Source of the DNA: a virus
Taxonomy: Duplodnaviria > Heunggongvirae > Uroviricota > Caudoviricetes
Strand: one strand, 5' to 3'
Virus record (IMG/VR): IMGVR_UViG_2974586480_000001
DNA length: 38,915 nucleotides
The notes under the pieces were generated by a model, which searched no databases, had not been told where the DNA came from, and saw nothing but the letters and a program-made list of their open reading frames with translations. Position 1 is the first letter of the stretch; each line of letters begins with the position of its first letter. The position numbers and the translations under genes are program-made. Positions 16,078 through 18,860 of the stretch are shown one piece after another.

Positions 16078-16087
16078 GAAATTTAAT

Positions 16088-16120
16088 GATGATGTAGCTC
16101 AGTTGGTTAGAGCAAAGAAT
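16088..16120 (+). pseudogene. Orphan tRNA 5' half (acceptor strand plus D-arm)
   Basis: GATGATG-TA-GCTC-AGTTGGTTA-GAGC-A then breaks off; no matching 3' half in the array. Confidence 0.65.
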
Positions 16121-16125
16121 AATTT

Positions 16126-16216: not shown

Positions 16217-16527
16217 ATGTTCTGTAATAAACATGGAAAGATTACCCCAACAAAATCTGGCCGTTGTGGATCTTGTATGGTAGAGGCTGTTAAAAGCGTA
16301 GATACAAAATAAAACAGATGGCTGTGGATTATAAAGGTGGTAAATGTGAAAAGTGCGGGTATGATAAGTTCATAGGAGCTTTAGAATTCCACCACTTAAA
16401 CCCTGAACAAAAAGACTTTAGTTTAGGCGATAAGGGTTATACTCGTTCTTGGGATAAAATTAAAGATGAATTGGACAAATGCATTATGGTTTGTTCGAAT
16501 TGTCATAAAGAAATACATTATAGTTAA
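16217..16527 (+). pseudogene. HNH endonuclease with a one-base frameshift near 16292-16295
   Basis: Frame 1 gives MFCNKHGK..RCGSCMVEAVK with stop at 16310-16312. The -1 frame continues KRRYKIKQMAVDYKGGKCEKCGY..LEFHH..VCSNCHKEIH. Confidence 0.7.
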
Positions 16528-16530
16528 AAT

Positions 16531-16690: not shown

Positions 16691-16796
16691 CGAGTAGAGC
16701 GATTCTTATTAAGTGATGCAGTGTATCAGACCCAAGATTCCAATCTTACTGCGCTTGAATTTAATAAGGAAGGGGCTATCAACCCCCTACTCACCT
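16691..16796 (+). ncRNA. Structured non-tRNA element with tRNA-like acceptor/T-arm end
   Basis: GAGTAG/CTACTC terminal stem, 12-bp and 7-bp internal helices, GGGG-CTATCAA-CCCC arm, 3' ACC. Confidence 0.55.
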
Positions 16797-17150: not shown

Positions 17151-17221
17151 GCAGGTGAGTCTAGGCGACAAGCTGGCCTCCAAAACCAGTTAACAGGGTT
17201 CGAATCCTTGCATCTGTGCCA
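17151..17221 (+). tRNA. tRNA-Trp(CCA), short D-arm
   Basis: GCAGGTG/CATCTGT, CT-CCA-AA, TTCGAAT, G73-CCA; only 71 nt. Confidence 0.8.
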
Positions 17222-17259
17222 ATTTTGCAAAGCAAAATCAATTGCTTTCATCAATTAAT

Positions 17260-17334
17260 GCTTCGATAGCTCAGTGGTAGAGCAAACTCTTGATAAGGGT
17301 TAGGTCGATGGTTCAAGCCCATCTCGGAGTACCA
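17260..17334 (+). tRNA. tRNA-Ile(GAT)
   Basis: Canonical cloverleaf, TT-GAT-AA, CCA. Confidence 0.93.
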
Positions 17335-17340
17335 TTTTAT

Positions 17341-17420
17341 GCTTTAGTTTCTGGATAGCTACCAGTATGGAACATAGGGAGTCATGACTCTGGCAGGTTC
17401 GAATCCTGCACTAAGGCACT
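17341..17420 (+). ncRNA. tRNA-like RNA without a normal anticodon arm
   Basis: GCTTTAG/CTAAGGC acceptor and GCAGG-TTCGAAT-CCTGC T-arm, three short internal hairpins, no CCA. Confidence 0.6.
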
Positions 17421-17426
17421 TATTTA

Positions 17427-17501
17427 GGGAATGTAGCTGAAATGGATTAGTATCTGGTTGAAGCCCAGAAGATGTTGGATCGTTACCAACCATTCCCACC
17501 A
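17427..17501 (+). tRNA. tRNA-Phe(GAA)
   Basis: GGGAATG/CATTCCC, TCTGG-TTGAAGC-CCAGA, T-loop ATCGTTA, CCA. Confidence 0.88.
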
Positions 17502-17505
17502 ATTC

Positions 17506-17592
17506 GGATGTAATGAGCAATGTGGTTAGCTTCAGCGGTCTGTAAAACCGTGCTCTCAGGGCCTCTAGGTTCGATTCCTAGTACATCCACCA
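17506..17592 (+). tRNA. tRNA-Tyr(GTA)
   Basis: GGATGTA/TACATCC, CT-GTA-AA, long variable arm, CCA. Confidence 0.92.
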
Positions 17593-17779: not shown

Positions 17780-17953
17780 ATGGAAAAATTGCTTCGTAAT
17801 AAAAAGAAGTTTGACAAGAAAACTTTTGAAGTCTGCCCTATCCATGGTCGTAAATGTGGAATAGTTAATGAGTTCCACCATGACTTCTTTTCTAGAGCTA
17901 GAGAAAAAACTCAGTACAAGAAAGAAATTGTAGACCAAATGGAGGCATCATGA
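17780..17953 (+). CDS. Small hypothetical protein inside the tRNA array (57 aa, not in ORF track)
   Basis: Manual translation MEKLLRNKKK..VCPIHGRKCG..HHDFF..; coupled by ATGA to the next ORF. Confidence 0.5.
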   Translation: MEKLLRNKKKFDKKTFEVCPIHGRKCGIVNEFHHDFFSRAREKTQYKKEIVDQMEAS

Positions 17954-18255: not shown

Positions 18256-18332
18256 GCGATTGTGACGGAATAGGCATACGTACTTGCCTTAGAAGCAAGG
18301 TTCTGTGGGTTCGACTCCCACCTATCGCACCA
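18256..18332 (+). tRNA. tRNA-Leu(TAG), short variable region
   Basis: CTTGC-CTTAGAA-GCAAG, TTCGACT, CCA. Confidence 0.88.
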
Positions 18333-18827: not shown

Positions 18828-18860
18828 AAGGCTGTAGTAGCAATACTACGGCCTTTTTTA
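18828..18860 (+). terminator. Intrinsic terminator closing the tRNA array
   Basis: AGGCTGTAGTA-GCAA-TACTACGGCCT followed by a T-tract. Confidence 0.8.

What the first reader, a model, noticed from the sequence alone, without database searches (positions are those of the whole stretch)
17341..17420. tRNA mimic with perfect acceptor and T-arm but an anticodon arm shrunk to a 3-nt-loop hairpin
Seen: acceptor GCTTTAG(T)/(A)CTAAGGC, T-arm GCAGG-TTCGAAT-CCTGC, then three internal hairpins: CTGG-ATAGCTA-CCAG (D-like), TATG-GAA-CATA (anticodon position, only a 3-nt loop) and GAGT-CATG-ACTC (variable-like). It ends ACT, not ACCA. It is spaced like its neighbouring tRNAs (Ile and Phe). Reading CAT as an anticodon gives a poor stem and no variable region. 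Known: T4 and T5 tRNA clusters yield stable non-tRNA RNAs of unknown function, and bacterial YrlA Y RNAs mimic tRNA. Inference: a non-decoding tRNA mimic, possibly a decoy for tRNA-binding defence nucleases or sensors.
Basis: partly seen in the sequence, partly recalled or inferred. Interest (0 to 1): 0.7.

Follow-up and report, generated by a model that had tools for sequence, protein, structure and literature searches.

The report
Anticodon-less pseudo-tRNA in phage tRNA cluster
A tRNA-shaped sequence with no usable anticodon loop really does sit between two tRNA genes of this Aeromonas phage, but it occurs only in three near-identical phages, is cleanly missing from their closest relatives and changes as fast as unconstrained DNA, so it is most likely a young broken tRNA gene rather than a purpose-built tRNA mimic.

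Summary
Window 17341-17418 (+) folds into an 8-bp acceptor stem, a D arm, a canonical T arm and a class-II-like extra hairpin. A 4-bp/3-nt-loop hairpin stands where the anticodon arm should be. No CCA is encoded, although every neighbouring tRNA encodes one. No stem closing a 7-nt loop can be drawn, so the RNA cannot decode.

The "functional decoy" reading gets no comparative support:
- The window is a Lahexavirus (Aeromonas phage LAh_6/LAh_8 type). The element exists only in the window, LAh_6 and LAh_8.
- One relative has flanks 99% identical to the window, yet tRNA-Ile abuts tRNA-Phe directly.
- Four further relatives whose DNA polymerase falls in the same 90%-identity cluster also lack it, as do more distant relatives and three public collections.
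- Among the close genomes, 3 of its 78 positions vary against 4 of 1482 in the neighbouring tRNAs (p = 0.004). That is the background rate of the flanking genes.
- No compensatory change is seen, and the three variants have three different predicted core folds.

It lies inside a polycistronic tRNA unit, so it is probably transcribed and excised.

Best reading: a young, lineage-restricted pseudo-tRNA (about 0.6). A functional non-decoding mimic remains possible (about 0.2). Interest is low to moderate.

The parts
17341..17418 (+). The whole tRNA-shaped element, 78 nt including the unpaired A after the acceptor stem
   Evidence: Sequence; MFE cloverleaf; end-to-end alignment to Rfam tRNA-Sec at 31.2 bits; own covariance model R1 scores 110 bits here and finds nothing else above 21 bits
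17341..17348 (+). Acceptor stem, 5' strand (GCUUUAGU); pairs with 17410-17417
   Evidence: 8 bp, invariant in the three carriers
17351..17365 (+). D arm CUGG-AUAGCUA-CCAG; the loop lacks the usual GG; 17360 is U>C in LAh_8
17366..17376 (+). 4-bp hairpin with 3-nt loop (UAUG-GAA-CAUA) in the anticodon-arm position; 17367 is A>G in LAh_8 (gives G.U)
17378..17391 (+). Variable-arm-like hairpin GGAGU-CAUG-ACUCU; 17389 is U>C in LAh_6, which breaks A-U here but turns G.U into G-C in the alternative helix 17375-17379/17388-17392
17393..17409 (+). T arm GCAGG-UUCGAAU-CCUGC with canonical T loop, stacked directly on the acceptor stem (8+5 = 13 bp)
17410..17417 (+). Acceptor stem, 3' strand (ACUAAGGC)
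17419..17421 (+). CTT where the neighbouring tRNA genes encode CCA
17260..17334 (+). tRNA-Ile(GAT), upstream neighbour; its end is the left boundary of the cassette swap in relative L058
17427..17501 (+). tRNA-Phe(GAA), downstream neighbour
18828..18855 (+). Strong intrinsic terminator just after the last tRNA. It is the only +-strand terminator-like site in the array, so the element lies inside the polycistronic tRNA transcript.

Best explanation
The element is a young, lineage-restricted pseudo-tRNA. It derives from a tRNA gene shaped like a class-II tRNA, with a long extra arm and an 8+5 acceptor/T stack. It has lost its anticodon loop and has no encoded CCA.

It lies inside the phage's polycistronic tRNA transcription unit. 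It is therefore probably transcribed, and it is set free when the flanking tRNA-Ile and tRNA-Phe are matured (inferred). Its intact acceptor/T-arm 'top half' should still be a substrate for RNase P (inferred).

With only a 3-nt loop, or in an alternative fold an 8-nt loop with no variable region, it cannot pair with a codon in the ribosome. That follows from the sequence.

It is dispensable and evolves without tRNA-like constraint. That follows from the comparisons.

I read it as a neutral passenger of a very plastic tRNA array that is riddled with homing endonuclease genes.
For: (1) No decoding anatomy.
- No stem closes a 7-nt loop.
- ARAGORN is silent at default settings and self-contradictory at low thresholds.
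- The Rfam tRNA model does not report it. The tRNA-Sec model gives 31.2 bits, below its gathering score of 47. The same model gives 28.9 bits to the ordinary class-II tRNA-Tyr next door, so the hit reflects overall shape, not Sec identity.

(2) Narrow distribution.
- Full-length matches occur only in LAh_6 and LAh_8.
- It is a single copy in each genome.

(3) Clean absence in the nearest relative.
- Contig L058 is 99.0-99.6% identical on both sides.
- It reads tRNA-Ile-CCA, then AATAC, then tRNA-Phe.
- Window 17335-17564 is replaced there by a diverged Phe-Tyr pair plus a PDDEXK_5 endonuclease gene.

(4) Absence from other relatives.
- L070, L071, L073 and L074/L075 belong to the same 90%-identity DNA-polymerase cluster. 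They carry syntenic clusters in which ARAGORN tRNAs, and they lack the element.
- APT65 and phage 7-11 lack it.
- Pattern scans of IMG/VR, the metagenome collection and the GTDB genomes found no copy and no tRNA with the same acceptor stem.

(5) Relaxed constraint. Variable sites among the window, LAh_6, LAh_8 and L058:
- element 3/78
- neighbouring tRNAs 4/1482 (Fisher p = 0.0036)
- spacers 13/1234
- flanking coding DNA 127/4983 (p = 0.45 against the element)

(6) No compensatory change. The three variants have three different predicted core folds, and only the acceptor/T stack is constant.

(7) The array demonstrably produces tRNA debris.
- A tRNA-His is split by an HNH gene, and a stray tRNA 5' half lies at 16086-16122.
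- The gene order is shuffled among relatives.
Against: - All 26 base pairs of the cloverleaf are intact in the window copy and the T loop is canonical. That is tidier than an old pseudogene should be, so the element must be either young or selected.
- No parental tRNA could be identified. Only T-arm matches to assorted tRNAs were found. The 'broken tRNA' origin is therefore inferred from shape and position, not demonstrated.
- All three substitutions fall in the core and none in the 33-nt acceptor/T module. By chance this has p of about 0.18, so it is not significant.
- In the alternative fold, none of the three substitutions disrupts a pair.
- Absence from relatives shows dispensability, not lack of function in the carriers.
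- No expression data could be obtained.
Confidence: 0.6

Rival explanations
1. It is a functional non-decoding tRNA mimic. The conserved acceptor/T-arm 'top half' would act as a decoy or sponge for a host factor that recognises that part of tRNA. Candidates are a defence toxin acting on the tRNA 3' end or acceptor, or a tRNA-sensing protein. The core would be free, or even pushed, to vary.
For: - The 13-bp acceptor/T stack and the T loop are perfect and invariant.
- The element is inside a transcription unit, so it should be made.
- Substitutions cluster in the core and are all tolerated by at least one alternative fold.
- Other non-tRNA structured stretches fill gaps in the same array.
- From the literature: phage tRNAs are proposed to counter tRNA-targeting defences (PMC10264068), and a pseudo-tRNA has been recruited to a regulatory role in Bacillus cereus (PMC3399842).
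Against: - It is confined to three near-identical genomes.
- It is lost without trace from a 99%-identical relative and absent from all other relatives.
- Its substitution rate equals the genome background.
- There is no covariation.
- It has no encoded CCA, so a decoy for enzymes that act on the 3' end would first need CCA addition.
Confidence: 0.2
2. It is a chargeable special-purpose tRNA. After CCA addition it would be aminoacylated by a synthetase that ignores the anticodon. LeuRS and SerRS read class-II shape and the discriminator base. HisRS reads an extra G-1:C73 pair, and the 8-bp stem can be numbered that way. The charged RNA would act off the ribosome.
For: - Class-II-like extra arm and an unpaired A after the stem.
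- The 8-bp stem can be numbered G-1:C73, as seen from the sequence.
- The anticodon independence of these synthetases is textbook knowledge recalled from memory, not tested here.
Against: - CCA is absent, while all neighbouring tRNAs encode it.
- The D loop lacks the GG that supports the tRNA elbow.
- The distribution and rate arguments against the mimic reading apply here too.
Confidence: 0.05
3. It is a processing spacer, kept because its tRNA-like shape guides RNase P and 3' processing of the precursor and so helps tRNA-Ile and tRNA-Phe mature.
For: It sits in register, with spacers like those between true tRNAs, inside a single transcription unit.
Against: L058 joins Ile and Phe through a 5-nt spacer without it. 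Most tRNAs of the array are separated by only 5-10 nt.
Confidence: 0.05
4. It is an unusual but decoding tRNA. It would use the alternative fold: a 5-bp stem (17375-17379/17388-17392) with an 8-nt loop AGUCAUGA, read as a CAU or quadruplet anticodon.
For: The alternative helix is the predicted MFE in LAh_6, and its G.U becomes G-C there.
Against: - This fold leaves no variable region at all and a 9-nt D/anticodon connector, an unknown geometry for a working tRNA.
- No CCA is encoded.
- The array already has a CAU tRNA.
- The rate is unconstrained.
Confidence: 0.03

Closest known systems
Pseudo-tRNAs in phage tRNA arrays (for example the three 'tRNA-Pseudo' genes annotated in Aeromonas phage Akh-2)
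   Same: A tRNA-derived sequence sitting in register within a phage tRNA cluster that fails standard tRNA criteria.
   Different: The Akh-2 pseudogenes still have a nameable anticodon (GTG, CAT, CAA). This element has lost the anticodon loop altogether, yet keeps every helix perfectly paired.
Bacillus cereus tRNA-Other, a pseudo-tRNA recruited to a regulatory role (PMC3399842)
   Same: A tRNA-like element that does not function in translation. It is a precedent that such relics can acquire another job.
   Different: tRNA-Other is chromosomal and part of a larger regulatory RNA, and its deletion has a phenotype. Here nothing indicates function, and a close relative lacks the element.
Selenocysteine tRNA (Rfam RF01852)
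   Same: A 13-bp acceptor/T coaxial stack (8+5, as in bacterial tRNA-Sec) and a long extra arm. It is the best-scoring Rfam model.
   Different: - The score is below the gathering threshold (31.2 against 47).
- There is no UCA anticodon loop.
- The D stem has 4 bp and a 7-nt loop instead of 6 bp and 4 nt.
- An A follows the stem, not G.
- The ordinary tRNA-Tyr next door scores 28.9 with the same model.
Stable non-tRNA RNAs of the phage T4 tRNA region (species 1 and 2) and bacterial YrlA Y-RNA-like RNAs (recalled from memory; YrlA is Rfam RF02553)
   Same: Small structured RNAs co-transcribed with, or resembling, tRNAs, with no decoding role.
   Different: No YrlA match overlaps the element. 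No model of the T4 RNAs was available to test. Those RNAs are longer and are not cloverleaves.
Phage tRNAs altered in the anticodon arm to escape host tRNases (PMC10264068; PMC12445682)
   Same: Phage-encoded tRNA genes whose anticodon stem or loop departs from the host's form.
   Different: Those tRNAs still decode. Their changes are point mutations or a shortened stem, not removal of the loop.

Membership tests
Canonical decoding tRNA (Rfam RF00005) | Anticodon arm: a stem closing a 7-nt loop with U33 and a purine at position 37 | tested here: not met
   No stem of 3 bp or more closes a 7-nt loop between the D and T arms. ARAGORN gives three different forced anticodons at low thresholds.
Canonical decoding tRNA (Rfam RF00005) | Reaches the family's gathering score or is called by a tRNA finder | tested here: not met
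   No RF00005 match overlaps the element at E up to 10; where related models overlap the tool lists only the best-scoring one, here tRNA-Sec. Not called by ARAGORN at default settings.
Canonical decoding tRNA (Rfam RF00005) | T arm with UUCRANY loop stacked on the acceptor stem | tested here: met
   GCAGG-UUCGAAU-CCUGC lies directly next to the acceptor 3' strand.
Canonical decoding tRNA (Rfam RF00005) | Purifying selection comparable to the tRNAs in the same array | tested here: not met
   3/78 variable sites against 4/1482, Fisher p = 0.0036.
Selenocysteine tRNA (RF01852) | 13-bp acceptor/T stack and a long extra arm | tested here: met
   8+5 bp stack and a 5-bp extra hairpin.
Selenocysteine tRNA (RF01852) | UCA anticodon in a 7-nt loop; 6-bp D stem with 4-nt loop; gathering score of 47 bits | tested here: not met
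   3-nt loop; D stem of 4 bp with a 7-nt loop; 31.2 bits. tRNA-Tyr scores 28.9 with the same model.
YrlA / Y-RNA-like (RF02553) | Match to the family model | tested here: not met
   No YrlA hit overlaps 17341-17418 at E up to 10.
Pseudo-tRNA (decayed tRNA gene) | tRNA-derived sequence, in a tRNA array, lacking features needed for decoding | tested here: met
Pseudo-tRNA (decayed tRNA gene) | Relaxed constraint and patchy presence among close relatives | tested here: met
Pseudo-tRNA (decayed tRNA gene) | An identifiable functional parent or orthologue | tested here: not met
   Only T-arm-length matches to assorted tRNAs were found. No tRNA with the same acceptor stem exists in IMG/VR or the GTDB genomes. 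The resemblance to the Akh-2 tRNA-Thr(GGT) that also follows tRNA-Ile is limited to the T arm and a few acceptor bases.
Functional tRNA mimic or decoy | Conservation of the structure through compensatory changes across diverged relatives | tested here: not met
   No diverged relatives exist in the data searched. Among the three carriers there are 0 double-sided changes.
Functional tRNA mimic or decoy | A stable, processed transcript and a phenotype on deletion | not testable with these tools
No wet-lab data.

The most novel reading that the evidence does not exclude
This would be a recently evolved, lineage-specific 'top-half' tRNA mimic. The invariant acceptor/T-arm module would be processed by RNase P and given CCA. 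It would then soak up a host tRNA-binding defence factor or enzyme. The core, freed from decoding, would be diversifying quickly under that conflict, which would also explain why all three substitutions lie there.
Probability: 0.15. Interest if true: 0.65.

Novelty: new member of a known kind. Interest (0 to 1): 0.25.

Why it matters
If it is a relic, it is a neat snapshot of how phage tRNA arrays turn over. Genes are shuffled, split by homing endonucleases and disabled on a time scale at which the rest of the genome is still 99% identical. It is also a warning that tidy cloverleaves in such arrays need comparative support before they are called mimics.

If it were functional, it would be a minimal natural example of a phage tRNA decoy that works without an anticodon. 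That would point to host factors that read the acceptor/T-arm half of tRNA. The natural variant that lacks it (the L058 type) makes this cheap to test.

Tried and rejected
- Decoding tRNA with an intron or a stretched loop: rejected. ARAGORN intron mode gives only a forced 4-nt 'intron', and no stem closes a 7-nt loop.
- True tRNA-Sec: rejected (see the membership test).
- Decayed tRNA-His, suggested by the possible G-1:C73 reading: rejected. The phage has its own tRNA-His upstream, split by an HNH gene in the window. The element does not resemble the APT65 tRNA-His.
- Orthologue of the tRNA-Thr(GGT) that follows tRNA-Ile in T5-like Aeromonas phage Akh-2: not established. The similarity is mostly in the T arm, and equally good T-arm matches hit Asn, Ser, Pro and Ile tRNAs.
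- Gene on the minus strand: only a mechanical 53-codon TTG ORF (17359-17520) was found. It runs against the direction of all neighbouring genes and is not annotated in LAh_6.
- Source of the central 20-mer in bacterial genomes: one hit in an Atribacteria MAG, not tRNA-like. About one chance hit is expected (my estimate).
- Exact-pattern scans of IMG/VR for the element, for tRNA-Ile and for tRNA-Phe: no hits.
- Metagenome scan with the tRNA-Phe T arm: two contigs. L061 carries a related tRNA-Phe and L060 carries no tRNA; neither carries the element.
- NADAR-based locus fishing in IMG/VR returned unrelated large phages.
- LAh_9 could not be fetched.

Full report
**What is there**

The acceptor stem has 8 bp and stacks directly on a 5-bp T stem, giving a 13-bp stack where ordinary tRNAs have 12. 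The T loop is canonical. The D loop (AUAGCUA) lacks the usual GG. After the unpaired A comes CTT, whereas every neighbouring tRNA gene that I read encodes CCA.

ARAGORN finds 18 tRNAs in the window but not this element. The Rfam tRNA model does not report it. The tRNA-Sec model aligns end to end at 31.2 bits, below its gathering score of 47. That alignment puts the 3-nt-loop hairpin in the anticodon position and the second hairpin in the extra-arm position. The same model gives 28.9 bits to the ordinary class-II tRNA-Tyr at 17506-17588, so the hit reports a class-II shape, not selenocysteine identity.

At lowered thresholds ARAGORN proposes Leu(tag), Pro(ggg) with a 4-nt intron, or mt-Ser(gga). 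These calls are mutually inconsistent. An enumeration finds no stem of 3 bp or more closing a 7-nt loop in the core.

**Context**

The window is a Lahexavirus. Aeromonas phages LAh_6 and LAh_8 are 99.7% identical over the region. The element lies in a 2.7-kb array of about 20 tRNA genes, all on the + strand. The only +-strand intrinsic terminator-like site follows the last tRNA, at 18828-18855. The element is therefore almost certainly co-transcribed. It must be released when tRNA-Ile (6 nt upstream) and tRNA-Phe (8 nt downstream) are processed. This step is inferred.

The array is visibly unstable:
- A tRNA-His is split by an HNH gene, and a stray tRNA 5' half lies at 16086-16122.
- A second HNH-motif ORF lies between tRNA-Asn and tRNA-Gly.
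- tRNA order differs among relatives.

**Distribution**

| Genome or collection | Relation to the window | Element |
|---|---|---|
| LAh_6, LAh_8 | 99.7% identical over the region | present, one copy each |
| L058 (104.7-kb assembly contig) | flanks 99.0-99.6% identical | absent |
| L070, L071, L073, L074/L075 | same 90%-identity DNA-polymerase cluster; syntenic clusters in which ARAGORN tRNAs | absent |
| APT65, Salmonella phage 7-11 | about 52-54% identical polymerase | absent |
| IMG/VR, metagenome and GTDB pattern scans | public collections | no copy |

In L058, tRNA-Ile (100% identical to the window's copy) is followed by AATAC and then tRNA-Phe. Window 17335-17564 is replaced there by a diverged Phe-Tyr pair (77% identical) plus a PDDEXK_5 endonuclease gene. 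This looks like an endonuclease-driven cassette swap from a donor in which Ile abuts Phe.

The pattern scans also found no tRNA sharing the element's acceptor stem. The single GTDB hit to the central 20-mer is a chance match in an Atribacteria MAG.

**Constraint**

I counted variable sites among the window, LAh_6, LAh_8 and L058:

| Region | Variable sites | Fisher test against the element |
|---|---|---|
| Element | 3 of 78 | n/a |
| 19 neighbouring tRNAs | 4 of 1482 | p = 0.0036 |
| Spacers in the array | 13 of 1234 | p = 0.065 |
| Flanking coding DNA | 127 of 4983 | p = 0.45 |

The element thus changes at the genome's background rate, not at the rate of a working tRNA.

The three substitutions are:
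- 17360 U>C, in the D loop.
- 17367 A>G, which turns A-U into G.U.
- 17389 U>C, which breaks A-U in the extra hairpin.

No pair changes on both sides.

An alternative helix, 17375-17379 with 17388-17392, closes an 8-nt loop. It tolerates all three changes, and 17389 U>C improves it from G.U to G-C. However, that fold leaves no variable region and a 9-nt connector between the D arm and the anticodon-like arm. The predicted MFE of the core differs in each of the three variants. In LAh_8 the two substitutions together create yet another helix. Only the acceptor/T module is constant.

**Interpretation**

The data fit a young pseudo-tRNA best. It is tRNA-derived by shape and position, disabled for decoding, dispensable and unconstrained. 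It is still tidy because it is recent.

Points against a simple relic:
- The perfection of all 26 pairs.
- The failure to find a parent tRNA. The nearest, the Akh-2 tRNA-Thr(GGT) that also follows tRNA-Ile, shares little beyond the T arm.
- The fact that all three changes avoid the top half. This is not significant (p about 0.18).

A functional top-half mimic therefore remains possible, and I give it about 0.2. Published cases concern phage tRNAs that still decode (PMC10264068, PMC12445682). The best precedent for a re-used pseudo-tRNA is B. cereus tRNA-Other (PMC3399842).

**Verdict**

- Observation: confirmed.
Non-decoding: yes. Maintained mimic: not supported.
- Novelty: a new member of a known kind (pseudo-tRNA in a phage tRNA array).
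- Interest: 0.25.

Earlier notes of this scan on the same window (a split tRNA-His and other structured fillers) agree with the picture of a plastic array. I re-saw the split tRNA-His in the sequence.

Noticed in passing
window 17151-17222 (+): A tRNA-Trp(CCA)-like gene missed by ARAGORN. Rfam tRNA gives 26.7 bits, just under the gathering score. It has an acceptor stem with two G.U pairs, a C.A mismatch in the anticodon stem, and an encoded CCA.
   Followed up: partly
window 16086-16122 (+): A stray 5' half of a tRNA (GATGATG-TA-GCTC-AGTTGGTTA-GAGC...) with no 3' half, just upstream of tRNA-Asn. The LAh_8 differences cluster here (16107-16125). This is tRNA debris in the same array.
   Followed up: no
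L058 2202-2785 (equivalent to window 17335-17564): A close relative carries a cassette of diverged tRNA-Phe and tRNA-Tyr (77% identical) plus a 129-aa PDDEXK_5 endonuclease gene. The boundaries fall exactly at the end of tRNA-Ile and inside tRNA-Tyr. It looks like homing-endonuclease co-conversion.
   Followed up: partly
window 16692-16792 (+): A roughly 100-nt structured filler between tRNA-Pro and tRNA-Asp. It has a 6-bp closing stem, a T-arm-like GGGG-CUAUCAA-CCCC hairpin and a long rod (z = -2.5).
   Followed up: partly
window 18256-18332 (+); also L070 15457-15533, L073 13044-13120: The tRNA called Leu(tag) is only 77 nt and has no long extra arm (class-I shape). It is conserved in relatives, where the anticodon-arm sequence differs. 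This is unusual for a bacterial-type tRNA-Leu.
   Followed up: no
L056 152-233: In a more distant relative (homologue of the 57-aa ORF at 17780-17953 is 84% identical), a tRNA-sized structured stretch ending in CCA lies between tRNA-Tyr and tRNA-Ser(gct). ARAGORN does not call it (z = -3.0).
   Followed up: no
window 16217-16528 and 17780-17953 (+): Small ORFs embedded in the tRNA array. The first carries HNH-like motifs (CxxC ... HH ... CxxCH). The second (57 aa) has only two homologue clusters among 5.8 billion proteins.
   Followed up: partly
L002 (LAh_8) 3025 and 3032, equivalent to window 17360 and 17367: The two LAh_8 substitutions together turn CUAC/AUGG into CCAC/GUGG. This creates a new 4-bp helix that competes with the D arm in the predicted fold.
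   Followed up: partly
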